A stretch of DNA of 64,000 bases from Polyangia bacterium (lineage in GTDB: Bacteria; Myxococcota_A; Polyangia; Fen-1088): the NCBI GenBank assembly GCA_036267635.1, contig DATAVR010000139.1, positions 211 to 64,210 on the forward strand, written 5' to 3'. The translations under genes and the position numbers were made by a program. The notes under the pieces were generated by a model. It had not been told where the DNA came from and searched no databases. It was given only the letters and a program-made list of their open reading frames with translations. Shown here piece by piece: positions 12,313 to 56,378 of the stretch (position 1 is the stretch's first letter; each line of letters begins with the position of its first letter).

Positions 12313-12514
12313 GGCGGATCTCCGAGGCGCTGGGGTTGGCGACCTGGAGTTTGAGACTGGCCCGCCGATCCGCCATTCGAGCGATCGCAAATCAGTCTTC
12401 GCCGCACCTGCCGTGAGCGCGTCGATCTACGCCCCGGCCGCAATTGCCACCCGTCGATCGCTGGCCATGTTGCAGGCCGAGGGCCGCGGCGACGTGGTCA
12501 GGGGAGAGACTTCC

Positions 12515-35416: not shown

Positions 35417-38005
35417 TCAGCCCGGAGCGTGCGCCGCTTGCCACGCGTCGATGTCGTGGATCAAGCGGGAGGCTCCCGGCTCTTTGGCGATTCCCTCGCG
35501 GGTGCTTCGAACGAGAGCGGCCGATCGCCGGTGCTCGCGAGGTGAGGCGCTCCACAGGGCGCGCGAAAGAGCAAACCGGGCCTGGGCGGCGATCAGCGGA
35601 TCCTGATCCCCGAGAAGCGCAGCCGACCTTTCGAGTGTGCCGACCGCCGCGCGATCGCGGTGCTCGGCCAGCTCGAGGGTCCCACGATCGAGCAGGGCGT
35701 AGCCGAGGTAGAACGCCGTCGCTCCCTGCCTCCCGAAGGTGGCCAGAGCGTCGTCGAGGGCTCGGTGTGCTTCGGCGAACCGCCCCAAGCCGGTGAGAAT
35801 CTCGGCCTGATTCACCGACGCCACAGCCACCAAGGTGCTGTCTTTTCCTGAAAGCTTCGAGAAGAGATCGACAGCCCGGAGGATGAGCGGCTCGGCGTCT
35901 GCATCGCGATTGAGCGCGTGCAACTTGAGAGCGACGTTCGACGCCGAGACGGCGACGTCGAAATGAGAGGAGCCGAGAACCTTCTCCTTGAGGGCGAGGA
36001 CCTTCTGGGTCTGACGAAGCGCTTCCTCTAGATGCCCTTCGTCGAACGAGACCTGGGCGTCGTCGTCTGCCAGCCACGCTTCCAAGATCGGATGATCTGG
36101 AAACCGCGCCAGGACGGCCTGGCCGTGCCTCAGGGCGTTTCGTGCCATTCGCGTATCGTGAAAGCGGCTCGAATAGAGCGTCCCGAGGTAGAGATTCGCC
36201 TCGATCGAAACCTGGTCGTGCCGTGAGGCGTCGGCGGCAAACACCGCGCTGTCGAGCTCGCTGATCGCCTTCTCGGCATCGATACAGGTCTCGCCCAGCC
36301 GGCCGAGCGTGAGGTGCGCTTCGGCCTCGAGTGGGAGGTAACCGATTGCCTTCGCCGTCGCTACGGCGGCTGCGCCGGCAGCAGCGGCCTGATTGCACTG
36401 TCCGGAGTCTCCCAATGCCTTGACTCGCGCCACCGCCTCGCGGGCGGCGCCGACCTTGGCGCGCACCGCCGGATCGTCGGGCGGCTTGATCACGGCGCGC
36501 AACATCGGGACGTCGGCGCAGCGATCGAGCGCCGGAAGCGCGCTGGCGGCGCCGACGGCGTTGTCGACCACGCCGCGATCGGCGGTCAGGAAGACGTCAC
36601 CGAGGGCGCGCACACCGGAGAGCCGTTCGCCGAGGCATCCCATGCGCAGGTCGAGCACCTCGGCCGACTGCTCGCCGCGGACCTGCGTCGCCTCGCAGCT
36701 GTCGGCGTACATCCCAGTCCAGCGCGCGACGTACTGATCGACGAGCGCCGAGGCGTTGGCGAAAGCGCGTGCCGCGTTGCTGTTGCCGGTCGCCGCGAAC
36801 GCGCGCGCGATCGCCGCCCGCCGGTCGGGGCCCCAGACGCTCGCCGCGCGGCCGGGACCTCCCGCGCACATCGCCCGTTGGCCCGCGGTGAAACGATGCG
36901 CGCCCGCCGCGCCCGCGGCGACGAAGATCGCGGCGGTGGCCGCCGCCAGCCATCGCCGGCGGCGCACCGCCGGGTCGTGGCCGAGCGCGGTCAGGAGCTC
37001 GGTCATCGCCGGAAAGCGATCCTTGGGATCGGTGGCCAGGCCGCGCAGCAAGATCTTCCGGATCCAGGCCGGCACGCGAGCCTCCGACGGCGGATCGGTC
37101 ACCGTGCCGGCGACGACGTTGGCCATGAGCGCGAGGGCGTTCTCCCCCGCGAACGGGCGGCGGCCGTAGACACCTTCGTAGAGCGCCACGCAGAACGAAA
37201 ACTGATCGGAGCGCGCGTCGCCGCCCGTCCCGGCGAACTGCTCGGGCGCCATGTAGGCTGGTGTCCCCAGCATCGCGCCGGTCTGGGTCAGCTTGAGCCG
37301 CAGGTAGCCGCCCGACGCGCTCGGCACCGCTCCGTTCAAAGCGCCGCCACCACCGAGCTTGGCCGTCGCGTCGGGATCGACGCCGTCGCCGAAGGTGTCG
37401 GCCAGCGCGGCGGCCAGCGCGGCGGCGTCCAGCGCCAGCTGCCCCGCCGGCGACGGCGCGTCGGCCGTCATCTGCTCGCGCGCGAGACCGAAGTCCATGA
37501 CCCGGACCTGGCCGGCCTTGGTGATCATCACGTTCTCGGGCTTGAAGTCGCGGTGGACGAGACCGGCGGCGTGAGCCGCCACCAGGCCTCGGCCGGCGGC
37601 GACGTAGACGTCGAGCACCTCGCGCCAGCGATGCGTCGCGGCCTGCAGCCAGTAGCCGAGCGTGTGCCCTTCGACGAACTCCATCGCGATGAACACCGAC
37701 TCGCGGAACGTGCCGACGTCGTAGACGACGACGACGTTGGGGTGCGACAGCCGCGCGATCGCCTGCGCCTCGCGCAAGAGGCGCGTCTTGCCGTCGGCGG
37801 TCGCCTCGCCGCTTCCGCCCCGGGCCCGCAACAGCTTGACGGCGATCTTGCGATCCAGCTCCGGATCGTAGGCGGCGTAGACCTCGCCCATACCGCCGCG
37901 GCCGAGGAGGCCGAGCACCACGTAGCGGCCGATGGTCGCCCCCTTGGCCAAGCCGGTCTCCTCGCCGGCGGCGTTGGGCGGGGGGCGCCTCGGCTCGATG
38001 GACAT
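35417..38005 (-). CDS. Ser/Thr protein kinase with large C-terminal TPR-like region
   Basis: Motifs GRGGMGEVY, VAVK-like AVKLL, HRDFKPENV, DFGLA and APE, followed by about 500 aa of helical repeats. Confidence 0.9.
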   Translation of the reverse strand: MSIEPRRPPPNAAGEETGLAKGATIGRYVVLGLLGRGGMGEVYAAYDPELDRKIAVKLLRARGGSGEATADGKTRLLREAQAIARLSHPNVVVVYDVGTFRESVFIAMEFVEGHTLGYWLQAATHRWREVLDVYVAAGRGLVAAHAAGLVHRDFKPENVMITKAGQVRVMDFGLAREQMTADAPSPAGQLALDAAALAAALADTFGDGVDPDATAKLGGGGALNGAVPSASGGYLRLKLTQTGAMLGTPAYMAPEQFAGTGGDARSDQFSFCVALYEGVYGRRPFAGENALALMANVVAGTVTDPPSEARVPAWIRKILLRGLATDPKDRFPAMTELLTALGHDPAVRRRRWLAAATAAIFVAAGAAGAHRFTAGQRAMCAGGPGRAASVWGPDRRAAIARAFAATGNSNAARAFANASALVDQYVARWTGMYADSCEATQVRGEQSAEVLDLRMGCLGERLSGVRALGDVFLTADRGVVDNAVGAASALPALDRCADVPMLRAVIKPPDDPAVRAKVGAAREAVARVKALGDSGQCNQAAAAGAAAVATAKAIGYLPLEAEAHLTLGRLGETCIDAEKAISELDSAVFAADASRHDQVSIEANLYLGTLYSSRFHDTRMARNALRHGQAVLARFPDHPILEAWLADDDAQVSFDEGHLEEALRQTQKVLALKEKVLGSSHFDVAVSASNVALKLHALNRDADAEPLILRAVDLFSKLSGKDSTLVAVASVNQAEILTGLGRFAEAHRALDDALATFGRQGATAFYLGYALLDRGTLELAEHRDRAAVGTLERSAALLGDQDPLIAAQARFALSRALWSASPREHRRSAALVRSTREGIAKEPGASRLIHDIDAWQAAHAPG

Positions 38006-38071: not shown

Positions 38072-39643
38072 GTGCGCCGACCGGAGTGGCTGACGCGGGA
38101 CTACCTGACGATCGACTCCCGGAGCCTGGGCGCCGGGAGGATCGGCCTCGGGCTCGTGCTGCTGCTCGATCTGTTGCGGCGGATCTCGGTCCTGCCGCTC
38201 TGGTACTCGAACCTCGGCCTCCTGCCCAACCACACGGTCCTCTGGCGGCCGCCGTTTCCTCGGGCGTTCTCCCTCTTCTTCATGGCGTCACTGCCCTCCG
38301 AGGCGGCGGTCGGCTTCGTCCTCTGCGCGGTCGCCTACCTGATGCTCCTCTTCGGCAACCGGACGCGCGCAGCCCATCTGGCCAGCCTGATCGCGGTCTT
38401 GAGCCTTCACGGGCGCGTCCTCTTCGTTCAAAACGGCGGCGATGTGGTGCTCGTCGAGCTCTGCGTCTGGACGTTGTTCCTGCCGACCGGGCGCCGATTT
38501 TCGCTGGATTCGCTGCGCGCCCGCCGGGCGATCGTCCCGCCCGACGACGGGCCAGTCGTGTCGCTGGCGGCGCTGGCGGTCGTGGTGCAGCTGGCGGTGA
38601 TCTACTTTTTCAACGCGCTCCAGAAGAGCGGCCCCACCTGGCGCGGCGGCGGCGCCGTCCACTACACGCTCTACGCCGAAGGGGTGGTGACCAAGCTGGG
38701 CGTCTGGGTCCGGGGCTGGCTGACCCTGGGCCAATCGCGCCTCCTCACCTGGTCGACGCTGACGATCGAATCGATCCTGCCGCTGCTCATCCTGACGCCG
38801 GTGGGGCGGCGGCCGGCGCGGCGGCTGGCGATCGCGCTCATGGTCGGCCTGCACCTCGGCTTCGCGTCGTTCCTCAACCTGGGAATTTTCGTCCCGGCGA
38901 TGCTCGCCTTCACACCGTTCCTGGTGCCGGCCGCCGATTGGGACGCGCTCGAGCGCTGGTGGCGGCGGCGCCAAACGAAGGAAGGCGATGCCGCGCGCGG
39001 TGACGGCATCCGGCTCCGGGCTCTCCAGGCGCTCGCCTTTCTCGAACGGCGCGGTTTCCTGCGCCTCGACCCCCGGCCCCCCAAGCCGGCGCAGTGGCGC
39101 GAGTGGCTGCGCACCTGGAGCGGACCGCTGCGCGAGTGGACGGTGGCGCTGCTCATCGTTTGCGCGACCGCCCGCCTGCTGGTCGACAACCCCGCCGTCA
39201 CGCGGGTCAACGCCCGGCGCCAACCGCGCATCGTCGCCGCGACCACCAGCTACCTTCAGATGCTGCAGGCCTGGCTGCTCTTCGCTCCGGATGCGCCGCT
39301 CACCGACGCCGCCGTGGCAGTCGACGCCGTCACCACCGACGGGCGCCACGTCGATCCGCTCAACGAGGCCCTCTCGCCCGAGCAGCCCTGGCTCGGCACG
39401 GTCATTCCGGCGCGCCTCGGCCAGAACGCCTTCGCCGCCGCCTACATGTTGCGGATCCCGTTCCACCCGGAGTACTTCGGCGCGCTCACCGAGTGGATCC
39501 TCGGCTACCCCGATCGCACGGAGCGCCCGGCGGATCGCATCGTCTCCTTCGAGGTCACCGCCCTCGAGCGCGACAACCCACCACCCGACCAGCACGAACC
39601 CGGCGAAACGCGGGCGCGGCTCCTCTACAAATACCCGCAGTGA
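38072..39643 (+). CDS. HTTM-domain (vitamin K-dependent gamma-carboxylase-like) integral membrane protein
   Basis: GTG 38072. N-terminal pattern SLGAGRIGLGLVLLLDLLRR...LWYSNLGLLPN and a multi-TM core match the HTTM domain as I recall it. The C-terminal about 220 aa are soluble. Confidence 0.75.
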   Translation: MRRPEWLTRDYLTIDSRSLGAGRIGLGLVLLLDLLRRISVLPLWYSNLGLLPNHTVLWRPPFPRAFSLFFMASLPSEAAVGFVLCAVAYLMLLFGNRTRAAHLASLIAVLSLHGRVLFVQNGGDVVLVELCVWTLFLPTGRRFSLDSLRARRAIVPPDDGPVVSLAALAVVVQLAVIYFFNALQKSGPTWRGGGAVHYTLYAEGVVTKLGVWVRGWLTLGQSRLLTWSTLTIESILPLLILTPVGRRPARRLAIALMVGLHLGFASFLNLGIFVPAMLAFTPFLVPAADWDALERWWRRRQTKEGDAARGDGIRLRALQALAFLERRGFLRLDPRPPKPAQWREWLRTWSGPLREWTVALLIVCATARLLVDNPAVTRVNARRQPRIVAATTSYLQMLQAWLLFAPDAPLTDAAVAVDAVTTDGRHVDPLNEALSPEQPWLGTVIPARLGQNAFAAAYMLRIPFHPEYFGALTEWILGYPDRTERPADRIVSFEVTALERDNPPPDQHEPGETRARLLYKYPQ

Positions 39644-40170
39644 CCATCTGGGCGTCGATCCTGGCCGTCGTATTGGCCGCGGAGCTTCCGGCACCGGCCG
39701 GCGACCCGCCGCCTGACGATCCGCCTCCCGTCGGTCTCTGCGCCGGCGCCGCCACCGCCATCGTGCCGTTCGTCGTGGGCGGCGCGCTGATGGCGCACGA
39801 CCAGGCGCCCCACCTGGAGGCGACCGGCGTCATCGTGATGGCCTCGGGGTTCGCGCTGGCGCCCTTCGTGGCGCACGGCCTCGAAGGGTCGTGGCGGAAG
39901 GCCGCGATCTACGGCGGCGTCTCGCTGGCGTTGTCGACGGCCGCGGTGGTGGAGATGGAAGAGAGAAACCTGTTCGATCCGCACGTCGGAAACGATCGCC
40001 GGATCCCGATGAAGATCTTCCTGCCGCTCAGCATGGTGAGCTCGGCCTTCGGCGTCGTCATGAGCGTGTTCGATCGCCGCGGCCTCGAGCCAGTTCCGCA
40101 GCTCTCGCTCTGGTTGGCTCCCGCGCCGGGCGGCGTCGCCAGCGGCGTCGGCTGGAGCGGGCTGCTTTGA
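39640..40170 (+). CDS. Hypothetical membrane protein
   Basis: GTG 39640 overlaps the HTTM stop (GTGA). Signal-like N-terminus and 3-4 hydrophobic segments. High GC3. Confidence 0.55.
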   Translation: MTIWASILAVVLAAELPAPAGDPPPDDPPPVGLCAGAATAIVPFVVGGALMAHDQAPHLEATGVIVMASGFALAPFVAHGLEGSWRKAAIYGGVSLALSTAAVVEMEERNLFDPHVGNDRRIPMKIFLPLSMVSSAFGVVMSVFDRRGLEPVPQLSLWLAPAPGGVASGVGWSGLL

Positions 40171-40394
40171 AGCGCGTAGCGGCCCGCGCGCTCTCTGCCC
40201 TCGCGCTGGCCGCGCTCCTCTGCGGCGGCTGCGCGATGGTGCCCCAGAATCGGCGCAAGCACCTGGGCGATCCGATGATGAGCCCCGACGGAGACGCCCT
40301 GCTGACGGCAGGCCAGCGCAAGCTCTACACCTCGCGCGAGTCGGCGGCGGGCGGCGATGCCGCGCCGGCGGGTGGCGGATGCGGCTGCCAGTAG
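40167..40394 (+). CDS. DUF4266-like small lipoprotein
   Basis: TTG 40167 overlaps the upstream stop (TTGA) and yields MKRVAARALSALALAALLCGGC. About 75 aa, with the C-terminal GGGCGCQ motif I associate with DUF4266. Confidence 0.65.
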   Translation: MKRVAARALSALALAALLCGGCAMVPQNRRKHLGDPMMSPDGDALLTAGQRKLYTSRESAAGGDAAPAGGGCGCQ

Positions 40395-41593
40395 CCGGGG
40401 CCGCGCTCCTCTTTCTCGTCGCGCCGGCGGCGCGCGGCGAGCCGGTCGGCAACCCCTTCCTCGCGCCGCCACCCTCGGATCTCGATCAACCCGCGCTCGT
40501 CTCGGCGCCTCGCTACCGGATCGAATCGGTCGCGGTGCGCACCACCACCTTCGATCAGGATGGGCTCGGGTATCAATCGGCGGCCGGACCGGTCTTCGGG
40601 CCCGGTTCGGAGCGGGCGACCATCCTCGAGCCCCAATGCGAGATCGTGGCCGCGCTCGGCGATCGGCTGATCGAGCGGGTCGTCACCTCGGTCGATGTCG
40701 TCACCGCGGCCTCCCCCAACCACCGCCTCTACGGGCTGCCTGTCGGCACGCCGGTCGACGTCGTCAGCTCACCCTCCCGCATCAACGAAGCGGAGGAGAT
40801 CGACTCGGACTCGACCTACGCCTGGAGCCGCACCGCCACCTTGGGGATCCACGCCGACTACCACCTGGAAGAGCCGCTCGAGTCGTGGGGGCTCGGCGCC
40901 CTCGCCACGCGCTCGTTCGCCGGCGACAACACCGTCCTTTCGGGCAGCCTCTACCAGATCGTCGACTGGTTCGACAACTTCAACCTGGCCGGCAAACGCT
41001 TCGGGCGCGACGTGCGCACCACGACCAACGCCAACCTGGGATTTTCCCAGCTGCTGACGCCGACCACCATCGTCCTCGGCAGCTACGGCTTCACGGTTCA
41101 GGCAGGGACGTTGACCAACACCTGGAACAGCGTTCCGCTCTCCGACGCGACCCGCGGCACCGAGGTGGTCCCGCGCGAGCGCCTCCGCCACGCGGTCAGC
41201 GGGCGGCTGCTCCAGTGGCTCCCCTGGAACGGCGCGCTCAAGCTCGGCTACCGGCTCTACGCCGACAGCTGGGGCTCCCTCGCGCACACCGCCGACGCCG
41301 AGCTGTCGCAGCGGCTGGGCCGCCTGACGCTCGACCTCGGCGGGCGCTATCACCGGCAGTCGGCGGTCAGTTTCTTCGGCACTCTGTTCGATCCGGCGGC
41401 CCTCGGGCTTCGCACCGCCGACAGCGATCTCGCCCCGCTGGTCGCTCACGCTCTCTCGGCGGGCGCGCGCTGGGATCAACCGATCGGCCCCCAGGGACAT
41501 CGCATCTACTTCGCGATCAACGGCGAGCACTACTGGCGCACCAACAATCTGCACGTCGACTTCGTCAGTGGCGCGCTAGGATGGCAGCAATGA
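40379..41593 (+). CDS. DUF3570-like putative outer-membrane beta-barrel protein
   Basis: Signal peptide MRLPVAGAALLFLVAPAARG. About 400 aa and beta-rich. Its position directly after DUF4266, with a 16-nt overlap, is the usual pairing. Confidence 0.75.
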   Translation: MRLPVAGAALLFLVAPAARGEPVGNPFLAPPPSDLDQPALVSAPRYRIESVAVRTTTFDQDGLGYQSAAGPVFGPGSERATILEPQCEIVAALGDRLIERVVTSVDVVTAASPNHRLYGLPVGTPVDVVSSPSRINEAEEIDSDSTYAWSRTATLGIHADYHLEEPLESWGLGALATRSFAGDNTVLSGSLYQIVDWFDNFNLAGKRFGRDVRTTTNANLGFSQLLTPTTIVLGSYGFTVQAGTLTNTWNSVPLSDATRGTEVVPRERLRHAVSGRLLQWLPWNGALKLGYRLYADSWGSLAHTADAELSQRLGRLTLDLGGRYHRQSAVSFFGTLFDPAALGLRTADSDLAPLVAHALSAGARWDQPIGPQGHRIYFAINGEHYWRTNNLHVDFVSGALGWQQ

Positions 41594-42159
41594 GGCGGCG
41601 TGGACTGCGAGGGTTGTCGCTCGCGCTCGCGGTCGCGCTCGGCGGCTGCGGAAACGCTGGCTTGCGGCGGGCGAGCGCGCCGACGGCCGTGCCGCCGACG
41701 GCCGTCGACGGTTGGCAGCAGATCCCGCTCACCGATCTCGACGGCCGCCAGGTCACGCTGGCGCAGGTCCTGGCCGGGCGGCCGGCGCTGGTGAACTTCT
41801 GGGCCCCCTGGTGTGAGCGCTGCAAGACCGAGCTTCCCGATCTCGATCGCCTGGCGCGGCGGCTCGACGGCTGTGGTGTCATCGTCGGTGTCGCGGTCGG
41901 CGAGGACGCCTCCCACACGGCAGCCTTCGTGCATGAGCGAGGCCTCCTCTATCCGCAGGTCGTCGACGAGGAATTTCACCTGGCGGACGCCCTTCGACAG
42001 AGCCGCGTCCCGACCACGCTGGTGATCGACGGTGCGGGAGCGATCGTCCACGCCGGGCTGGCGCTCGATCAGGCGGCGCTCGGCGCGCTCCAGGCGGCGC
42101 TCAGCCGCGCGGACGCCGACGGACACTGCAAGGGGAGCCACCGTGCGGGTACGACCTGA
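41590..42159 (+). CDS. TlpA-family thiol:disulfide oxidoreductase lipoprotein
   Basis: ATG 41590 (ATGA overlap, AGGA 8 nt upstream; alternative ATG 41581). Lipobox ALGGC. Thioredoxin motif NFWAPWCERC. Confidence 0.85.
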   Translation: MRRRGLRGLSLALAVALGGCGNAGLRRASAPTAVPPTAVDGWQQIPLTDLDGRQVTLAQVLAGRPALVNFWAPWCERCKTELPDLDRLARRLDGCGVIVGVAVGEDASHTAAFVHERGLLYPQVVDEEFHLADALRQSRVPTTLVIDGAGAIVHAGLALDQAALGALQAALSRADADGHCKGSHRAGTT

Positions 42160-42293
42160 CGAACCACGAACCCTCGTGGGCACGCCCGCGGGATTTCGTG
42201 GCCACGACGCGTCTCAAGCATTAGGATGGCAGCGGAACTGCCGTTCTCGTGGATGAGTGGAATTGAGTACGCGGTTTGCAGATTGATCGAAAC

Positions 42294-42482
42294 ATGTTTA
42301 GAGGCGTGAAGGTGTTTTCGGCGACGAAGGCGAGAGATCGCGAGGCGCTCGGCGAGAACGTGACGAGATGGCTGGTCGAGCATCCGCAGCTCGAGGTCGT
42401 GGATAAGACGGTGACCCAGAGCTCGGACGCCGAGTTCCACTGCCTGACGATCACTCTGTTCTACGAAGCGCCAGCGGTCTGA
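42294..42482 (+). CDS. Small (62 aa) hypothetical protein
   Basis: ATG 42294 in a locally AT-richer leader. No signal peptide. Coding status is uncertain. Confidence 0.45.
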   Translation: MFRGVKVFSATKARDREALGENVTRWLVEHPQLEVVDKTVTQSSDAEFHCLTITLFYEAPAV

Positions 42483-42579: not shown

Positions 42580-43197
42580 TCAGACCCAGTTGTAGTTGAA
42601 GCTGATGCTGACGCGTTCGCCGCGCGTCGGATTGGAGGCGACCTCGTGCCGCAGCCAGCTCTCGAACAGGATCAGCTTGCCAGCGGCGACCTCGTAAGAG
42701 ACCTGCTGCCTGTTCTCCGGGCGGCAGTCGGGACGCTTGGGGGGCGCGCCCATCGTCTTGTCGAGGCGCGGGTCCTCGAACCGGATCCGCGAGCAGCCGC
42801 GCGGCGTGGCGACGTAGTAGGTCCCGCTCACCACCGCCAGCGGGTGCAGGTGCAGCGGGTGAACCGCGTGGCGCGACATCACGTTGACCCAGCAGTCGGT
42901 CATCACCAACCGGCCGCTTTGCAGGTTCATGTCCAGCCGCCGCGCGAACCGGTTCACGTGGCGGCGGATCTTCACCTCCAGGTCGATGAACGTCGAGAAC
43001 GTCTGGTGGAGGTTGGTCATCGTCCCGTACGACGTGTAGCCGGCCGGGTAGTTCTTGCGGCACCAGCGCTGGCCGGCCCGATCGTGGGCGCGGATCTTGT
43101 GGCAGTCGTCGAGCAGCGCGCGCGCGAAGGCGTCGGTGCCGCGCGGCTGCAGCGGCGAATCGTAGATGAGCGTCGGGAACCAGGGGTTGATGGGCAT
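42580..43197 (-). CDS. TIGR02466 / 2OG-Fe(II)-oxygenase-like (PF13759-type) protein
   Basis: Starts MPINPWFPTLIY. Contains the HPLHLHPLAVVSGTYYV and LFESWLRHEV..N motifs of this family. Starts 2 nt after the radical SAM stop. Confidence 0.8.
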   Translation of the reverse strand: MPINPWFPTLIYDSPLQPRGTDAFARALLDDCHKIRAHDRAGQRWCRKNYPAGYTSYGTMTNLHQTFSTFIDLEVKIRRHVNRFARRLDMNLQSGRLVMTDCWVNVMSRHAVHPLHLHPLAVVSGTYYVATPRGCSRIRFEDPRLDKTMGAPPKRPDCRPENRQQVSYEVAAGKLILFESWLRHEVASNPTRGERVSISFNYNWV

Positions 43198-43199
43198 GG

Positions 43200-45155
43200 T
43201 CAGGCGGCGGCGAGCGCCTTGGCGATCAAGTCGGCGGGGACCTGCGCGGCCGGGACCTTCCGGCGCGGACGTCGGGCCGCGCCGCCAGAAAACCAGGACC
43301 GCACGTCGAGGTCCAGCCCCACGCCGTGCATGTAGTTGTAGAGCGCCTTGCGCAGCCCCTCGCCGAGGAAGTCGTGGTCGGTGCCGGTCGGATCGGCGAA
43401 CGGCAGCTCGTTGCGCGCGAAGGCGGCCGGTTCCCCGAAGGCGGCGGCCGGTTCCTTGAAGAGGCGAATCCCGAACTTCTTCGGATGCAGCCCGATCGGG
43501 CTGTGCACCGTGGCGGCGAAGCGGTGCCAGAACGCCGACTGGATGCACCCCTCGTCGAACAGCTGCCGCACCCGCTCGAGCGCGTCGATCGTCTCCTGCT
43601 CGGTCTCGGTCGGAAAGCCGTACATCAGGTAGGCGTGGACCATCACGCCGGCGTCGGTGAAGGCGCGGGTCACGCGCGCCACCTGCTCGACGGTGACCCC
43701 CTTCTGCATCAGCGCCAGCAGCCGATTGGACGCGACCTCGAGGCCGCCCGTGACGGCGATGCAGCCCGCGCGCGCCATCAGCTCGCAGAGCGCGGGGCTG
43801 AACGTCTTTTCGAACCGGATGTTCCCCCACCAGGTGATCTCGACGCCGCGCTCGAGCAGCCGCTCGGAGAGCGCGCGCAACATCGCCGGCGGGGCCGCCT
43901 CGTCGACGAAGTGAAAGCCGGTCTGGCCGGTCTCGGTGACCAGCGCGACGACGCGGTCGACGATCAGATCGGCCGAGGCCGCCTCGTAGCGGCCGATGTA
44001 GGGGAGCGAGACGTCGCAGAAGCTGCACTTCTTCCAGTAGCAGCCGTGCGCGAGCGTCAGCTTGTTCCAGCGCCCGTCCGACCAGAGGCGGTGCATCGGG
44101 TTCAGCATCTCGAACAGGGAGACGTAGCGATCGAGCGGCAGCCCGGCGTAGGTCGGCGTCCCGGTCTCCGTGTGCGGCACGTCGCTCGCCCTTGCGTCGG
44201 TCTTGAGGACCACGCGGCCGTTCTCGCGCACGAACGTCCGGTGCAGCGGCGCCGGCTGGCCCACCTGGCCGCCCGCGCCGAGGTGCCGCAGCAGGCTCAG
44301 GAGCGGGCGCTCCCCGTCGTCGAGCGTCACGTAGTCGAAGCTGTCGAACACGCGCGGCTCGCCGAGCTCGCGCAGCTCGGTGTTGACGTAGCCGCCGCCC
44401 AGGACCAAGCGCGCCGCGGGGCGCGCGCGCCGGATCGCCCGCGCCAGGCGGAACGCGCCGTAGACGTTGCCGGGGAAGGGCGCGGTGATCCCCACGACGT
44501 CGGGGCGGTGCTGGGCCGCCAGCTCGGCGCCGATCGTGTCGGTGAGCTCGTCGACCAGCGTGGCCGGTCCCTCCAGCGCCGCCGCCAGCGGATCGAAGCT
44601 GGCGGCGCTGGTGGCCAGCTTTTCGGCGTAGCGTGACAGCTCGAAGCGCGGGTCGATCCCGTCGCGGATGGCGTCGGCGACGTCGTCGACGTAGAGGCTG
44701 GCGAGGTGTTTGGCCCGATCGGCGAGCGGCAGCGCGCGGTAGGCGGTGGCCAGCGGCGCGTCGCCCGCGTCAGCCTGCTCGAGCGCGCGCGAGAGCGGCG
44801 CGAAGCGCGGCCCTTCGGGCAGGAGCCGCCGGCGGGCGATGCGCGACGCCAGCTTCGGATCGCGGCCCTGCAAAAAGCTGACGGCGGCGTCGACCGTCTC
44901 GACGTAGCGTTCGCCGTTGCGGGCGAACGCCTCGACCGAGGCCGAACCCCGGCGGGAGAGCGCCGCGCGCACCCGCCTGAGCCCTTCGCGGCAATAAAGA
45001 CGCAGAAACAGCTCGAGCGCCGGATCGGCCTGCGCGATCTCCAGCCCCAGCTCGTCCGCGTGCAGTCGCAGGAACCCCGCCAGATACGCCGTCGCCGGGT
45101 AGGGCGTGTTGAGCTGCACCATCGGCGCCGTCAGCAGGAGTACGCGCATCGGCAT
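43200..45155 (-). CDS. B12-binding-domain radical SAM protein
   Basis: N-terminal Rossmann-like B12 domain (VVGITAPFPGN...LVLGGGY). Cluster motif HGCYWKKCSFCD (CX4CX2C). GGLE and the downstream TIM-barrel pattern. Confidence 0.9.
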   Translation of the reverse strand: MPMRVLLLTAPMVQLNTPYPATAYLAGFLRLHADELGLEIAQADPALELFLRLYCREGLRRVRAALSRRGSASVEAFARNGERYVETVDAAVSFLQGRDPKLASRIARRRLLPEGPRFAPLSRALEQADAGDAPLATAYRALPLADRAKHLASLYVDDVADAIRDGIDPRFELSRYAEKLATSAASFDPLAAALEGPATLVDELTDTIGAELAAQHRPDVVGITAPFPGNVYGAFRLARAIRRARPAARLVLGGGYVNTELRELGEPRVFDSFDYVTLDDGERPLLSLLRHLGAGGQVGQPAPLHRTFVRENGRVVLKTDARASDVPHTETGTPTYAGLPLDRYVSLFEMLNPMHRLWSDGRWNKLTLAHGCYWKKCSFCDVSLPYIGRYEAASADLIVDRVVALVTETGQTGFHFVDEAAPPAMLRALSERLLERGVEITWWGNIRFEKTFSPALCELMARAGCIAVTGGLEVASNRLLALMQKGVTVEQVARVTRAFTDAGVMVHAYLMYGFPTETEQETIDALERVRQLFDEGCIQSAFWHRFAATVHSPIGLHPKKFGIRLFKEPAAAFGEPAAFARNELPFADPTGTDHDFLGEGLRKALYNYMHGVGLDLDVRSWFSGGAARRPRRKVPAAQVPADLIAKALAAA

Positions 45156-45168
45156 TCGGATGGATCGA

Positions 45169-45831
45169 TTACCTCGAAACGCGCAGCCGCGCCCGTTGCG
45201 GCGCCAGGCCCGCGCGGCGGAGCGTGGCGGTCACCACCAGCCCGTCGCGCATCGCCGCCGGGAACGACACCTCGACCGGGACCGTCTCCGTGACCCGACC
45301 AGCGTGCTCGCAGCGGCGGCACCAGACGCCACCCGGCCTGGCCACGCCGCCGCAGGTGGGGCAGAGAATCAGGAGCGGCATCTCGACGACCGCGGTGCCG
45401 CCCCGGAGCGCCTCGCCCGCGCTCAGCTGGAGCTCCAGCACACCGTCCGCGTCGAGCCGCGCGGCCCCGGCCGCGACCAGGCGCTCGAGCGGCCCCGAAA
45501 GCCGCGCGACGAGATTGGGGATCGGCCGCTGCCAGGAAGCGCTCCACCCGACCGCCCCGACCGTCCAGGAACGGCCGTCCGACTCCGACGCCGCCCGACC
45601 GAACGCCCGCTCGCGCTCGAACAGGTGCGCGTCGTACGCCGTGCGCGCCGTCGGATCGGACAGCATCCGGTAGGCCTCGGCGATCCGTGCGAAGGTCTCG
45701 CCGCTGGCCGCGCCGGCACGATCGGGGTGATGTTTCAGCGCCAGTTGGCGGTAGGCGCGCCGGATCTCCGCCCCGGTCGCGGCGCGCGCCACGCCGAGAA
45801 GAACGTAAAGGTCGTCGGGCCCCTCCCGCAC
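45169..45831 (-). CDS. J-domain protein with single Cys4 zinc-ribbon-like motif
   Basis: J-domain DLYVLLGV...[12 protein letters not shown] (HPD). Later CPTCGG...WCRRCEHAG. Lies 13 nt upstream of the radical SAM gene. Confidence 0.85.
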
Positions 45832-50535: not shown

Positions 50536-52227
50536 GTGATTCATTCGTCACTATCGACACCTGCCGTTCGGAAATATGTTGGGCGCTTGATTCGCCGCCG
50601 GAAATTCCTGGCTCTCGCTGCGGCCTCGGTCCCGGCCTGGGCTTGCCGCCGGAGCGTGCTCGCCCCGGCGCCGCCCACCGAACGGCCGCCGGCGGCTCCG
50701 CCCGCCGGGACCGGCGAGGGCCCGCCGCTCCACCCCGACGCGCTCGCGCGCTTCGTCGACCCGCTGCCGATCCCCCGCACGCTGGCGCCGCAAGGAACCC
50801 GCCCCGACCCGCGCGATCCGACCAAGCAGGTCGCCTTTTACAAAGTCGCCATGGCCGAGGTGCTCGCCAAGATCCACCGCGACGTCCCCGCCACCCGCTT
50901 CTGGGGTTATGCCGGCAGCTTCCCCGGCCCGACCATCGAAGCCCGCGGCAGCCAGGGCGTCCTCATCGAGTGGGTGAACCAGCTGCCCACCCGTCACTTC
51001 CTTCCCATCGACCACACCCTCTGCGGCGCCGGCAAGGATCGCCCGGACGTCCGCGCCGTCACCCACGTGCACGGCGCGAAGGCGCCTCCGGAGAGCGACG
51101 GCTATCCCGAAAACTGGACGACGCCCGGACAGTCCTCGCTGTTTCACTACCCGAACCAGCAGGAGGCGGCGACGCTCTGGTACCACGACCACGCGATGGG
51201 AATCGAGCGCCTCAATCAGTACGCCGGCCTCCTCGGCGTCTACCTGATCCGCGACGCGGCAGAAGAGACGCTCGACCTGCCGCGCGCCCCTTACGAGCTG
51301 CCGCTGGTGCTCTGCGACCGGCTGTTCGGGCAGGACGGCCAGCTTCGATACTCGACCTCCGGCGCACCTGACGCCCCCTGGATCCCCGAGATCTACTGCG
51401 ACGCCCACCTGGTGAACGGGAAGTTGTTCCCGTACCTGGACGTCGAGCCGCGCCGCTACCGATTTCGCGTGGTCAACGCCTCGAACTCGCGGTTTTACGA
51501 CCTGTCGTTTTCGAACGGCGGCGCTTTCCATCAGATCGGAACCGACCAGGGCCTCCTGCCGGCGCCCGTTCCGCTCACCGCGCTGACGTTGGCGCCGGCC
51601 GAGCGCGCCGACCTGCTGGTCGATTTCAGCGCCGGCGCCGGTCAAAAGATCCTGCTCGAGAGCCAGGCGTTCGAGCTCATGCAGTTCCGCGTCGCCGCCG
51701 GCCCCCGGGCACGACCGACGCCGCTGCCGCGGAAGTTGCGCCCGGTCCGGAAGATCGCCGAGTCGGCGGCGGTTGTCACCCGAACCCTGAAGCTGAATGA
51801 GTACCACGACCCTCAGGCCCACCGGATGCTCATGCTCCTCGACGGCAAGCACTGGCACGACCCCGTGAGCGAGAAGCCCGAGCTCGACAGCGTCGAGATC
51901 TGGCAGCTCATGAACCTGACCGAGGACAGCCACCCCATCCATCTGCACCTGGTGCGCTTCCAGATCCTCAACCGCCAGCTGTTCGACGCCGACGAGTACC
52001 GGACTTCCGGAAAGCTGGAGCTGGTGCGCGCGCCGATGCCGCCGGCGCTCAATGAGGCGGGGTGGAAGGACACCGTCCGCGTCGATCCCGGAACGATTAC
52101 CCGAATCATCGTGAAGTTCGAGGGTTACACCGGCCGCTACGTCTGGCACTGCCACCTGCTGGAGCACGCCGCCAACGAGATGATGCGCCCCTTCGAGGTG
52201 GTCGCCCGGCCGACCTCAGCGGGATGA
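50536..52227 (+). CDS. Multicopper oxidase (CotA / bilirubin-oxidase-like), Tat signal
   Basis: RRRKFLALAAA twin-arginine region. Copper motifs HVHG, WYHDH, HPIHLHL and HCHLLEHAANEMM. Start uncertain (GTG 50536 or TTG 50587). Confidence 0.9.
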   Translation: MIHSSLSTPAVRKYVGRLIRRRKFLALAAASVPAWACRRSVLAPAPPTERPPAAPPAGTGEGPPLHPDALARFVDPLPIPRTLAPQGTRPDPRDPTKQVAFYKVAMAEVLAKIHRDVPATRFWGYAGSFPGPTIEARGSQGVLIEWVNQLPTRHFLPIDHTLCGAGKDRPDVRAVTHVHGAKAPPESDGYPENWTTPGQSSLFHYPNQQEAATLWYHDHAMGIERLNQYAGLLGVYLIRDAAEETLDLPRAPYELPLVLCDRLFGQDGQLRYSTSGAPDAPWIPEIYCDAHLVNGKLFPYLDVEPRRYRFRVVNASNSRFYDLSFSNGGAFHQIGTDQGLLPAPVPLTALTLAPAERADLLVDFSAGAGQKILLESQAFELMQFRVAAGPRARPTPLPRKLRPVRKIAESAAVVTRTLKLNEYHDPQAHRMLMLLDGKHWHDPVSEKPELDSVEIWQLMNLTEDSHPIHLHLVRFQILNRQLFDADEYRTSGKLELVRAPMPPALNEAGWKDTVRVDPGTITRIIVKFEGYTGRYVWHCHLLEHAANEMMRPFEVVARPTSAG

Positions 52228-55769: not shown

Positions 55770-56378
55770 GTGAAGGCTCGAGCCACCGCACCTGAGGCCG
55801 CAGAGGGCGGGTCGCGGTGGCGCCGTTTGTGGCCGTCGGCGCTCACGGCGCTGGCGATCGCCTTCGTGGCGGTGCGGTTCCTGGGCGCGACGCATGACAC
55901 CTTGGCCCGCACCCGCGGGGGAGCTTGCAAGGCGTTGCAGCCGGATCCACTGCCTGGCTTCTTGCAGAGCGGGCCGACGCCCGACTTTCAGCTTCCGGAT
56001 GCCGGCGGCCGCACGGTGTCGCTGAGCGCGCAGAAGGGGCACCCGGTGCTGCTGAACTTCTGGGCCACCTGGTGCCCGCCCTGCGTCGACGAGGTCCCTT
56101 CGCTGGAGGATCTCGCCCGCAAGCTCGACGGCACCGACCTGCGGATGCTGGCGGTGAGCGTCGACGACGACTGGGGCGCCATCCGGCGGTTCTTCCCGAA
56201 AGGGAGCAGCATCGGCGTCCTGCTCGACACCTCGCACGACATCCCCAAGAAGTTCGGGACCGAGAAGTTCCCGGAGAGCTTCCTCATCGACGCCGCCGGT
56301 CGCGTCCGCTACTACTTCATCAACAAGCGCGACTGGTCGCGCCCCGAAGCCGTCGCCTGTCTGGAAAGCTTGCGATGA
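55770..56378 (+). CDS. TlpA/ResA-family thiol:disulfide oxidoreductase (membrane-anchored)
   Basis: GTG 55770, an N-terminal TM segment, and the NFWATWCPPC motif. Confidence 0.85.
   Translation: MKARATAPEAAEGGSRWRRLWPSALTALAIAFVAVRFLGATHDTLARTRGGACKALQPDPLPGFLQSGPTPDFQLPDAGGRTVSLSAQKGHPVLLNFWATWCPPCVDEVPSLEDLARKLDGTDLRMLAVSVDDDWGAIRRFFPKGSSIGVLLDTSHDIPKKFGTEKFPESFLIDAAGRVRYYFINKRDWSRPEAVACLESLR

What the first reader, a model, noticed from the sequence alone, without database searches (positions are those of the whole stretch)
38072..42159. Five-gene translationally coupled envelope operon: HTTM protein, membrane protein, DUF4266 lipoprotein, DUF3570 barrel, TlpA thioredoxin
All four gene junctions overlap:
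- GTGA at 39640-39643.
- TTGA at 40167-40170.
- A 16-nt overlap at 40379-40394.
- ATGA at 41590-41593.

Three of the five genes appear to use GTG or TTG starts.

The DUF4266-DUF3570-TlpA trio is, as far as I recall, a widespread module of unknown function that usually travels with an ApbE flavin transferase. Here no ApbE is present. The module is instead headed by an HTTM protein, which has the fold of the vitamin K-dependent gamma-glutamyl carboxylase, plus an unknown membrane protein. The operon is transcribed divergently from a TPR Ser/Thr kinase, with a 66-nt spacer.

The 75-aa lipoprotein ends in GGGCGCQ, so it could be a redox-active carrier or a modified substrate. The composition is an inner-membrane quinone-type enzyme, a periplasmic thioredoxin, a Cys-motif lipoprotein and an outer-membrane barrel. 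That suggests an uncharacterised trans-envelope redox or protein-modification system.
Basis: partly seen in the sequence, partly recalled or inferred. Interest (0 to 1): 0.8.

Follow-up and report, generated by a model that had tools for sequence, protein, structure and literature searches.

The report
Envelope redox operon with optional HTTM
The last four genes of this myxobacterial (Polyangia) operon are the local form of an already described periplasm-to-outer-membrane redox module of unknown function, and the leading vitamin-K-carboxylase-like (HTTM) gene is a dispensable add-on found in one narrow clade, so this is a modest lead and not a new system.

Summary
Five same-strand genes lie at 38072-42159 with overlaps of 4, 4, 16 and 4 nt. 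Pfam matches above threshold confirm HTTM, DUF4266 (tail GGGCGCQ), DUF3570 and a TlpA-like thioredoxin (WCERC).

- The DUF4266-DUF3570-thioredoxin trio was described in 2021 as an ApbE-flavinylated extracytosolic redox module.
- In 80 species-level Myxococcota genomes the conserved unit is four genes. The "unknown membrane protein" (a new, unnamed family of about 175 aa) is upstream in 61/70, DUF4266 in 74/75 and TlpA in 72/78.
- HTTM lies within 10 kb in only 2/62, ApbE in 1/80, and the kinase within 3-4 genes in 3/80.
- So lacking a linked ApbE is normal for this phylum. The flavinylation serines are kept (DVVTAAS; G-to-A is tolerated by ApbE), so ApbE probably acts in trans.

HTTM precedes the module only in one narrow clade (6 of 10 loci). 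There, two or three divergent HTTM paralogs occupy the slot and at least two lineages have lost it. HTTM keeps the catalytic Lys/acid pair of human vitamin K carboxylase.

Verdict: a new variant of a known kind, of moderate interest. The HTTM link is a weak but real lead.

The parts
38072..39643 (+). HTTM (vitamin-K-carboxylase-like) membrane protein, 523 aa, GTG start. It has the HTTM transmembrane domain (residues 13-290), a Cys-less linker that is the remnant of a DCC1-like domain (about 305-342), one more predicted TM helix, and an unassigned C-terminal domain of about 150 aa. It is a lineage-restricted add-on to the module.
   Evidence: Pfam HTTM 33.4 bits. A profile of 40 homologues hits human VKGC structures at E=7e-5. 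The DCC1-like insertion in relatives P0043 and P0045 is shown. The C-terminal domain has no Pfam or NCBIfam hit.
38624..38626 (+). HTTM Lys185, invariant in 40 homologues. It aligns with the catalytic base Lys218 of human VKGC.
   Evidence: The role of K218 is taken from bioRxiv 10.64898/2026.03.26.714578.
38768..38770 (+). HTTM Glu233, invariant. It aligns with human VKGC Asp263, the partner of K218. The D263E mutant is reported to keep 25% activity.
39640..40170 (+). Gene 2: unnamed 176-aa protein family. It has a signal-like N-terminal helix, a Pro-rich linker, four helices and a C-terminal beta-hairpin. It carries the conserved motif SGFALAPxVAHG (His79) and has no conserved Cys. It is the conserved first gene of the four-gene core.
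   Evidence: No Pfam or NCBIfam match. Homologues lie directly upstream of DUF4266 in 61/70 genomes. An exhaustive search finds 144 representatives. AF2 model pLDDT is 79, and Foldseek finds nothing (best E 0.15).
40167..40394 (+). DUF4266 lipoprotein, 75 aa, TTG start. Lipobox LCGGC at 40218-40232. C-terminal GGGCGCQ (CxC) at 40371-40391.
   Evidence: Pfam DUF4266 40.5 bits. The alignment of 69 Myxococcota copies shows an invariant lipobox Cys, VPxNRR, RE.AAGGDG and GGGCxC.
40379..41593 (+). DUF3570, 404 aa, ATG start, with a signal peptide. It is predicted to be a 16-strand outer-membrane beta-barrel.
   Evidence: Pfam DUF3570 75.8 bits. AF2 pLDDT 83, pTM 0.78. Foldseek hits FadL, TodX, OccK and OmpG at E about 1e-8.
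40694..40714 (+). DUF3570 site 1, DVVTAAS (Asp106-Ser112). It is the counterpart of the ApbE flavinylation motif D-x-x-[S/T]-G-A-[S/T], with Gly replaced by Ala.
   Evidence: Nearly invariant across about 160 Myxococcota sequences. The same TAAS occurs in the one locus with an adjacent ApbE (L088). G-to-A keeps about 50% flavinylation in a model substrate (PMC12052999).
40757..40777 (+). DUF3570 site 2, DVVSSPS (Asp127-Ser133). The acceptor Ser is kept, but the normally conserved Ala is Pro in this subclade.
   Evidence: Motif census. Two flavinylated serines were shown in the Chlorobium luteolum homologue (PMC8238504).
41590..42159 (+). TlpA/ResA-like thioredoxin-fold lipoprotein, 189 aa. Lipobox LGGC at 41638-41649. 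Active site WCERC at 41809-41823.
   Evidence: Pfam AhpC-TSA, Redoxin and Thioredoxin_8. NCBIfam ResA, TlpA and DsbE matches all fall below the equivalog cut-offs. Present downstream of DUF3570 in 72/78 genomes.

Best explanation
The functional unit is a four-gene, translationally coupled operon: gene 2, DUF4266, DUF3570 and TlpA. It is the Myxococcota version of the DUF3570/DUF4266/thioredoxin extracytosolic redox module described by Meheust et al. 2021.

Proposed mechanism. Only steps 1-2 are shown here. Steps 3-6 are inferred.
1. The four products are exported. Two are lipoproteins (DUF4266 and TlpA), one is a 16-strand outer-membrane barrel (DUF3570), and one is a small four-helix, probably membrane-embedded protein (gene 2).
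2. The genes are co-inherited with conserved overlapping junctions.
3. The TlpA-like CxxC protein is kept reduced by a CcdA/DsbD-type membrane reductase encoded elsewhere.
4. TlpA exchanges thiol-disulfide electrons with the C-terminal CxC of the DUF4266 lipoprotein.
5. DUF4266 docks on DUF3570. The long loop between strands 3 and 4 of DUF3570 carries FMN bound to Ser112, and perhaps Ser133, attached by an ApbE encoded in trans. Electrons therefore reach the outer membrane or cell surface. The acceptor and the direction of flow are unknown.
6. Gene 2 is a Polyangia-specific anchoring or assembly partner.

The HTTM gene is a facultative, clade-restricted addition. It looks catalytically competent, because the Lys185/Glu233 pair matches K218/D263 of vitamin K carboxylase. 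It most likely couples a menaquinol/O2-dependent reaction to the envelope. The module works without it in most genomes.
For: - Domain identities.
- Published flavinylation of DUF3570 at two motifs, and the cluster of ApbE, DUF3570, thioredoxin-like protein and DUF4266 with or without DsbD: PMC8238504.
- Conservation in 80 species-level Myxococcota loci: gene 2 in 61/70, DUF4266 in 74/75, TlpA in 72/78, HTTM in 2/62. The same core recurs in the 80 metagenome loci, and HTTM was not seen in any of them, though many are too short to show it.
- HTTM-less sister loci with the same flanking synteny: L012/L013, L019, L020, L022.
- The junction overlaps are conserved for the four core genes, but the HTTM-gene 2 junction is a 39-101 nt gap in relatives.
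- Barrel model and Foldseek matches.
- The flavin-acceptor serines and the D-x-x-[ST]-x-A-S pattern are retained in about 160 sequences.
- The one ApbE-adjacent locus, L088, has the same TAAS site.
- G-to-A is tolerated by ApbE (PMC12052999).
- HTTM catalytic-pair alignment.
Against: - No ApbE and no DsbD/CcdA were found in the 64-kb window, so both trans-acting partners are assumed and not seen.
- Site 2 in this subclade is SSPS, with Ala replaced by Pro. That change is untested and may not be flavinylated.
- The loop that carries the motifs has low model confidence (pLDDT 53-63).
- No ApbE-linked DUF3570 sequences from other phyla could be fetched for direct comparison, because both collection scans used clade-specific patterns.
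- Nothing here is experimental. The role given to gene 2 is a guess, since it has no Cys and no fold match.
- Two different HTTM paralogues sit in the same slot in sister genomes. This hints that HTTM may be more than a passenger.
Confidence: 0.55

Rival explanations
1. HTTM is an integral fifth component in this clade. It would be a menaquinol-dependent, VKGC-like enzyme that takes one of two roles. Either it feeds or withdraws reducing equivalents for the TlpA/DUF4266/DUF3570 relay, acting as a quinone-linked membrane partner in place of DsbD. Or it post-translationally modifies a module component, for example by carboxylating the invariant Glu/Asp of the RE.AAGGD segment of DUF4266.
For: - The GTGA overlap with gene 2 in this genome.
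- HTTM lies directly upstream of gene 2 in the window, L001/L018, L010, L011 and L177, and 5.7 kb upstream in L016.
- Two or three divergent HTTM lineages occupy the slot: 74-78% identical within type i, 55% between type i and the DCC1-containing type ii, and 45-47% for L016. Meanwhile the core genes stay 65-85% identical, and sister genomes L010 and L011 carry different types.
- The catalytic Lys/Glu pair is invariant.
- Relatives carry a DCC1-like thiol-disulfide oxidoreductase domain inside the same protein.
- HTTM lies next to ApbE in a Flavobacterium, and is fused to Ndh2/DoxD in a spirochaete electron-transfer cluster (supplement of PMC8238504).
Against: - HTTM is absent from 4 of 10 loci of the same clade, with at least two independent losses on the core-gene tree. 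It is absent from the slot in all other Myxococcota loci examined.
- The closest unlinked homologues (52-68% identical) sit in unrelated contexts. In one genome the HTTM gene is about 590 kb from the module (L002 and L085 on the same contig).
- The DUF4266, DUF3570 and TlpA sequences do not differ between HTTM-plus and HTTM-minus loci.
- The window's HTTM has lost the DCC1-like domain and its cysteines.
- The region upstream of gene 2 is variable in gene content generally.
Confidence: 0.2
2. The module handles a metal and does not relay electrons outward. The TlpA-like reductase would keep the CxC tail of the DUF4266 lipoprotein reduced so that it can carry Cu(I) or another thiophilic metal to or from the DUF3570 outer-membrane channel. 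This is analogous to TlpA reducing ScoI and CoxB for copper insertion in Bradyrhizobium.
For: - A C-terminal GGGCxC on a flexible Gly-rich tail, and a TlpA-family partner.
- DUF3570 resembles substrate channels such as FadL, TodX and OccK.
- Meheust et al. note 25 clusters with a VIT1 iron transporter.
- A multicopper oxidase and a multi-DsbA protein lie 8-13 kb downstream in the window.
- The TlpA-ScoI/CoxB precedent comes from my own knowledge of the literature and was not checked here.
Against: - DUF3570 is experimentally a flavoprotein (PMC8238504), and its acceptor serines are conserved here. A pure channel model does not explain this.
- No metal transporter or chaperone gene recurs next to the module in 80 loci.
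Confidence: 0.12
3. The five-gene arrangement is a fortuitous juxtaposition with no shared function. On this view HTTM belongs to an ECF-sigma-controlled envelope function and merely landed in a recombination-prone slot upstream of the module.
For: - An ECF sigma gene lies directly upstream of HTTM in L001 and L011, and ECF sigma plus FecR-like genes lie next to unlinked HTTMs in L002, L005 and L006.
- The content of the slot varies: a cytochrome c, an ECF sigma, a 1056-aa spermidine-synthase-like membrane protein, or nothing.
Against: - HTTM is on the same strand and tightly spaced or overlapping with gene 2.
- Different HTTM paralogues recur at exactly this position.
Confidence: 0.2

Closest known systems
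ApbE / DUF3570 / thioredoxin-like / DUF4266 (with or without DsbD) flavinylation-associated gene cluster (Meheust et al., eLife 2021, PMC8238504)
   Same: It has the same three families in the same kind of cluster: a DUF4266 small secreted protein with a C-terminal CxC, DUF3570 carrying two D-x-x-[ST]-x-A-S sites at the published positions, and a thioredoxin-fold partner. Its function is likewise unknown and is presumed to be extracytosolic electron transfer.
   Different: - No ApbE or DsbD lies in the neighbourhood. This holds for 79 of 80 Myxococcota loci, not only here.
- Site 1 is TAAS instead of [ST]GA[ST], and site 2 is SSPS.
- The thioredoxin partner matches Redoxin/AhpC-TSA (TlpA-like), not PF13899.
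- An extra conserved family of about 175 aa (gene 2) heads the operon.
- In one narrow clade an HTTM gene is added upstream.
[quoted passage not shown]
   Same: - HTTM transmembrane domain above the Pfam threshold.
- The profile aligns to the human enzyme, with Lys185 on K218 and Glu233 on D263.
- Relatives have the HTTM plus DCC1-like architecture reported for DUF5819 partners.
   Different: - No detectable similarity to the carboxylase-specific lumenal region.
- The C-terminal TM helix plus domain of about 150 aa is unassigned, with no DUF5819 or SdpA match.
- It fails the SdpB family cut-off (34 vs 178 bits).
- No Gla-type substrate is identified.
- The window copy has lost the DCC1-like domain.
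TlpA / ResA / CcmG (DsbE) periplasmic thiol-disulfide reductases
   Same: Thioredoxin fold, a WCxxC active site, membrane or lipid anchoring, and best NCBIfam matches to ResA, TlpA and DsbE.
   Different: All scores fall far below the equivalog cut-offs (for example ResA 64 vs 170 bits), so it is only a family-level relative. Its partners here are DUF4266 and DUF3570, not cytochrome c or CuA maturation factors.
Porin-cytochrome trans-outer-membrane conduits (MtrAB-type). This is a functional analogy only.
   Same: An outer-membrane barrel combined with a covalently bound redox cofactor and periplasmic electron carriers.
   Different: The cofactor would be Ser-linked FMN on the barrel's own loops, not haems on an inserted cytochrome. 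There is no homology, and electron transfer across the membrane has not been shown.

Membership tests
DUF3570 (PF12094), ApbE-flavinylated barrel | Match to the family model above the curated threshold | tested here: met
   75.8 bits vs 25. There are 267 homologues at E<=1e-5, all carrying PF12094.
DUF3570 (PF12094), ApbE-flavinylated barrel | Two [S/T]GA[S/T] flavinylation motifs | tested here: inconclusive
   Both positions keep Asp and the acceptor Ser, but they read DVVTAAS and DVVSSPS. G-to-A is tolerated at about 50% in a model substrate. A-to-P is untested.
DUF3570 (PF12094), ApbE-flavinylated barrel | Cognate apbE in the same gene cluster | tested here: not met
   No ApbE was found in the window (an ApbE phmmer seed gave no hit at E<=10). 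Only 1 of 80 Myxococcota loci (L088) has one.
DUF3570 (PF12094), ApbE-flavinylated barrel | Covalent FMN on the protein | not testable with these tools
   Needs co-expression with ApbE and UV-fluorescent SDS-PAGE or mass spectrometry, as was done for the Chlorobium luteolum protein.
DUF4266 (PF14086) | Model match, small secreted protein, C-terminal CxC | tested here: met
   40.5 bits vs 27. Lipobox Cys22 and tail GGGCGCQ.
TlpA/ResA/DsbE thiol-disulfide oxidoreductases | Thioredoxin fold with a CxxC motif and an export signal | tested here: met
   AhpC-TSA 61.8 bits, Redoxin 54.1 bits, WCERC motif and lipobox LGGC.
TlpA/ResA/DsbE thiol-disulfide oxidoreductases | Equivalog-level identity to a characterised member (ResA, TlpA, CcmG) | tested here: not met
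   ResA 64.2 vs 170, TlpA 48.6 vs 230, DsbE 43.8 vs 123 bits.
HTTM / vitamin K-dependent carboxylase superfamily (PF05090) | HTTM transmembrane domain | tested here: met
   33.4 bits vs 27.7 over residues 13-290. The family profile hits human VKGC chains at E=7e-5.
HTTM / vitamin K-dependent carboxylase superfamily (PF05090) | Catalytic base Lys218 and its acidic partner Asp263 (human numbering) | tested here: met
   Invariant Lys185 and Glu233 fall in the aligned columns.
HTTM / vitamin K-dependent carboxylase superfamily (PF05090) | Carboxylase-specific lumenal region (human residues about 374-418) and a Gla-type substrate | tested here: not met
   The profile alignment stops at the TM domain. 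The C-terminal 184-223 aa have no family match. No substrate was identified.
SdpB family (TIGR04033) | Score above the family cut-off | tested here: not met
   34.3 bits vs 178.4.

The most novel reading that the evidence does not exclude
In this Polyangia clade a VKGC-like, menaquinol-dependent HTTM enzyme has been recruited repeatedly, as at least two divergent paralogues, one of them carrying a DCC1-like thiol oxidoreductase domain. It would work with the TlpA / CxC-lipoprotein / flavinylated-barrel module in one of two ways. It could act as a quinone-linked electron entry or exit point. Or it could modify the DUF4266 lipoprotein. If so, this would be the first physiological partner set for a bacterial HTTM protein outside secondary metabolism, and a quinone-to-outer-membrane redox chain built from thiols and flavins without cytochromes.
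Probability: 0.15. Interest if true: 0.8.

Novelty: new variant of a known kind. Interest (0 to 1): 0.38.

Why it matters
The DUF3570/DUF4266/thioredoxin module is widespread, is known to be flavinylated, and has no known function. This work adds three points.
- In Myxococcota the module is a four-gene unit with a previously unnamed small membrane protein.
- It is almost never linked to apbE, yet it keeps the acceptor serines.
- Its barrel is a 16-strand outer-membrane fold with the flavin sites on a long loop.

These points sharpen the hypothesis of a flavin-based route to the outer membrane. The occasional, repeated juxtaposition with catalytically intact HTTM proteins gives one of the few genomic leads on what bacterial vitamin-K-carboxylase homologues do. 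The lead is weak, because most relatives manage without HTTM.

Tried and rejected
- The 184-aa gene after an unlinked HTTM (L005) was tested as a gene-2 homologue. It was rejected at 21% identity with no shared motifs.
- A functional link to the divergent Ser/Thr kinase was rejected. A kinase lies within 3-4 genes in only 3/80 loci.
- Gene 2 as a DsbD-like thiol transporter was rejected. It has no conserved Cys, and the window's single Cys is not conserved. Its model gave no meaningful PDB fold match.
- The HTTM C-terminal domain was tested as DUF5819/SdpA-like. No Pfam or NCBIfam hit appeared even at E<=10.
- Sequence searches of PDB with DUF3570 found nothing, and with single-sequence HTTM only noise.
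- I tried to obtain ApbE-linked DUF3570 comparators from other phyla. Both collection scans derived clade-specific patterns and returned only high-GC Myxococcota loci. The 'Bacteroidota' MAG hit P0186 has the same myxobacterial four-gene layout. The stored supplement of Meheust et al. is truncated before the DUF3570 rows.
- No recurrent ApbE, DsbD or metal-transport family appeared among the neighbours.
- There is no Rfam family in the window. There is no sigma-70-type promoter, and only one chance-level terminator-like site in the operon.
- My first home-made gene caller missed the HTTM gene. It was corrected before any counts were made.

Full report
**1. What is in the sequence**

The window is about 69% G+C. 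Its HTTM protein is 100% identical to a protein annotated from a 'MAG TPA: Polyangia bacterium'.

- HTTM: GTG 38072 to 39643, 523 aa.
- Gene 2: GTG 39640 to 40170, 176 aa.
- DUF4266: TTG 40167 to 40394, 75 aa, ending GGGCGCQ.
- DUF3570: ATG 40379 to 41593, 404 aa.
- TlpA-like protein: ATG 41590 to 42159, 189 aa.

The junctions are GTGA, TTGA, a 16-nt overlap and ATGA. The TPR Ser/Thr kinase (35417-38005, minus strand) starts 66 nt from the HTTM start.

Pfam confirms HTTM (33.4 bits, threshold 27.7), DUF4266 (40.5 vs 27), DUF3570 (75.8 vs 25) and Redoxin/AhpC-TSA for the last gene. Gene 2 matches nothing in Pfam or NCBIfam. Gene calls made by others on three metagenome copies of this locus give the same five products.

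DUF4266 and TlpA both have lipoboxes. TlpA has the active site WCERC.

**2. The trio is already known**

Meheust et al. (eLife 2021, PMC8238504) showed that the DUF3570 protein of Chlorobium luteolum is flavinylated by ApbE at two [S/T]GA[S/T] motifs. They described clusters of ApbE, DUF3570, a thioredoxin-like protein and DUF4266: 227 clusters with DsbD and 316 without. [quoted passage not shown] A 2023 preprint also mentions the DUF4266/DUF3570/TlpA neighbourhood in passing.

**3. What is conserved around it**

Contexts of HTTM homologues:
- Those 71-73% identical keep the five-gene order (L001, L010).
- Those 52-65% identical sit in unrelated places: next to a cytochrome oxidase cluster, or next to ECF sigma/FecR genes (L002-L006).

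Contexts of DUF3570 homologues:
- L012/L013 (76% identical, with the same kinase and the same downstream 62-aa, 2OG-oxygenase and radical-SAM genes) has gene 2, DUF4266, DUF3570 and TlpA with no HTTM.
- L014/L015 and L096 (46-54% identical) show the same four genes.

Gene 2 homologues are 65-69% identical in the close loci and 36% in L014. An exhaustive HMMER search finds only 144 cluster representatives, all about 150-220 aa. This is a small unnamed family.

I scanned one genome per species with a DUF3570 alignment. This gave 80 loci, all Myxococcota and mostly Polyangia, including Minicystis rosea and Labilithrix. I called genes with a GC3-based caller, clustered neighbours and searched with home-built HMMs. 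The counts are:

| Feature | Loci with the feature |
|---|---|
| Gene 2 directly upstream | 61/70 |
| DUF4266 | 74/75 |
| TlpA downstream | 72/78 |
| HTTM within 10 kb | 2/62 (L016, and L018 which equals L001) |
| Ser/Thr kinase within 3-4 genes | 3/80 |

A metagenome scan with DUF4266 gave 80 more loci, all 65-76% G+C. They show the same gene 2-DUF4266-DUF3570 order, and no HTTM was seen, although many of these contigs are short.

The 4/16/4-nt overlaps of the four core genes recur in L001, L011, L012 and L177 (4/4/25 nt in L014). The HTTM-gene 2 junction is a 39-101 nt gap everywhere except this genome.

The conserved unit is therefore four genes, and gene 2 belongs to it.

**4. ApbE**

No ApbE or DsbD/CcdA was found among the window proteins scanned with Pfam.

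I scanned 221 neighbour proteins of 230-420 aa from the 80 genome loci, taking one per neighbour family. Exactly one ApbE appeared: L088:2621-3628, convergent just after TlpA, E=2.5e-84. Using it as a phmmer seed against all six-frame ORFs of the window and 176 loci gave no other hit at E<=10.

Absence of a linked apbE is therefore the rule in this phylum, not a feature of this operon.

The two motif positions are strongly conserved in about 160 Myxococcota sequences. Site 1 is D-[VIL]-[VI]-[TS]-[ASGN]-A-S, mostly TAAS. Site 2 is D-x-[VIM]-[ST]-x-[AP]-S-R. The acceptor Ser is invariant in both. The ApbE-adjacent L088 protein has the same TAAS. A 2025 review reports that G-to-A in the motif still gives about 50% flavinylation (PMC12052999).

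The window protein reads DVVTAAS and DVVSSPS. The second site, with Ala replaced by Pro, is typical of its subclade whether or not HTTM is present.

I infer that ApbE acts in trans. I could not verify this because only 64 kb of the genome is available.

**5. Structures**

The AF2 model of DUF3570 (45-sequence alignment, pLDDT 83, pTM 0.78) has 16 long antiparallel strands. Short turns alternate with long loops. Foldseek matches outer-membrane barrels (FadL, TodX, OccK/OpdK, OmpG, chitoporin) at E about 1e-8.

The two motifs flank the long loop between strands 3 and 4. This loop is on the same side as the other long loops, which by porin convention is the outer face or the lumen. Its confidence is low.

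The gene 2 model (pLDDT 79) shows a signal-like helix, four helices and a C-terminal hairpin. It has no meaningful PDB match. It has no conserved Cys. Its most conserved feature is SGFALAPxVAHG, with a near-invariant His.

**6. The HTTM protein**

A profile of 40 full-length homologues hits the solved human vitamin K carboxylase structures at E=7e-5 over the TM domain. The family-invariant Lys185 aligns with K218, and Glu233 aligns with D263. These are the pair that deprotonates vitamin K hydroquinone, and the D263E mutant keeps 25% activity. The protein therefore looks catalytically competent.

The C-terminal TM helix plus domain of about 150 aa has no family match.

Relatives P0043 and P0045 carry a DCC1-like thiol-disulfide oxidoreductase domain inserted after the HTTM domain. 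The window protein keeps only a Cys-less remnant. HTTM plus DCC1-like is a known architecture.

**7. How tight is the HTTM link?**

This concerns the subclade whose DUF3570 is at least 72% identical to the window's.
- HTTM lies directly upstream of gene 2 in the window, L001/L018, L010, L011 and L177. In L016 it lies 5.7 kb upstream, behind a 1056-aa spermidine-synthase-like membrane gene.
- It is absent in L012/L013, L019, L020 and L022.
- A neighbour-joining tree of the concatenated core genes scatters the HTTM-minus loci, which implies at least two losses.
- The HTTMs fall into three lineages: window/L001/L010 (74-78% identical to each other), the DCC1-containing L011/L177 (89% to each other, 55% to the first group), and L016 (45-47% to all).
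- The core genes stay 65-85% identical, and the sister loci L010 and L011 carry different HTTM types.

Different paralogues recurring in one slot is some evidence for a functional tie. The frequent loss, the unlinked orthologues and the variable content of the slot argue against an obligatory one. One example of an unlinked orthologue is an HTTM gene about 590 kb from the module on a single contig (L002 and L085).

Outside this phylum, the supplement of Meheust et al. shows an HTTM gene directly next to apbE in a Flavobacterium. It also shows an Ndh2::HTTM::DoxD fusion in a spirochaete electron-transfer cluster. This is anecdotal support for HTTM as a quinone-linked partner.

**8. Verdict**

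- Observation: confirmed.
- Interpretation: partly supported.
- Best explanation (confidence 0.55): a four-gene thiol/flavin relay from the periplasm to an outer-membrane barrel. It is the Myxococcota variant of a known module, with ApbE and a membrane reductase supplied in trans, and with HTTM as a facultative, clade-restricted addition.
- Rivals: HTTM as an integral quinol-linked or modifying component (0.2), metal trafficking via the CxC tail (0.12), and pure juxtaposition (0.2).
- Novelty: new variant of a known kind.
- Interest: moderate. It rests on the unnamed fourth family and the repeated HTTM recruitment.

Noticed in passing
window 13939-16251 (+): A single 770-aa ORF combines cytochrome bd oxidase subunit II (residues 1-321) with a complete type-II NADH dehydrogenase (Pyr_redox_2 plus NDH2_C). 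It lies directly after a CydA gene (12467-13942). A CydB::NDH-2 fusion would join a quinone reductase and a quinol oxidase in one polypeptide.
   Followed up: no
window 52994-55582 (+) and 55827-56378 (+): An 862-aa protein has four to five tandem DsbA/Thioredoxin_4 domains. It is followed by a second TlpA-like redoxin and an MFS transporter, with a multicopper oxidase just upstream (50656-52227). A similar 866-aa multi-DsbA gene lies about 9 kb downstream of the module (about 8 kb after its TlpA gene) in L011.
   Followed up: no
window 42276-42482 (+): A small ORF of about 58-68 aa lies 116 nt after TlpA and has no Pfam or NCBIfam match. It is conserved at the same position in 15 related loci (family 's62'). 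It sits between the module and the convergent 2OG/radical-SAM genes.
   Followed up: partly
window 42580-45831 (-): A TIGR02466-family 2OG-Fe(II) oxygenase, a B12-binding radical SAM enzyme (best match RiPP-maturation C-methyltransferase, below cut-off) and a DnaJ-domain protein form a syntenic block downstream of the module in the subclade. In L001 the radical SAM and 2OG domains are called as one 537-aa product.
   Followed up: no
L048 9046-9852 (+): The gene 2 domain and DUF4266 lie in one open reading frame with no stop codon between them. The DUF4266 signal peptide and lipobox are intact inside it. This is either a natural fusion or a lost stop codon.
   Followed up: partly
L088 2621-3628 (-): This is the only ApbE found next to the module among the 80 Myxococcota genome loci. 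It is convergent with TlpA. Its DUF3570 has the same TAAS first site as the ApbE-less loci.
   Followed up: yes
L165 3725-5010 (+); L018 and L038 (same contig): Some genomes carry two copies of the module. L165 has a second, very divergent DUF4266/DUF3570 pair 4 kb upstream of the main one. One MAG contig has an HTTM-linked copy (L018) and an HTTM-less copy 46% identical to the window's DUF3570 (L038), about 425 kb apart.
   Followed up: no
window 40379-41593, C-terminus: Most DUF3570 homologues end in G-x-R-F, an aromatic last residue as in typical outer-membrane beta-signals. The window's subclade ends in GWQQ, GWQL or GWQR instead.
   Followed up: no
L001, L011, L002, L005, L006: ECF sigma factor genes, often with a FecR-like anti-sigma gene, lie next to HTTM genes in five of the contexts examined. 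This holds whether or not the DUF module is present, and it hints that this HTTM family belongs to an envelope-stress regulon.
   Followed up: no
Supplementary file 1 of PMC8238504 (Flavobacterium sp004295795 SEBR01000039.1; Sediminispirochaeta NZ_KB899413.1): In a Flavobacterium, a 435-aa HTTM/VKG_Carbox gene lies 31 nt from apbE on the same strand, with Ndh2 nearby. In a spirochaete extracellular-electron-transfer cluster, Ndh2 is fused to VKG_Carbox and DoxD.
   Followed up: partly
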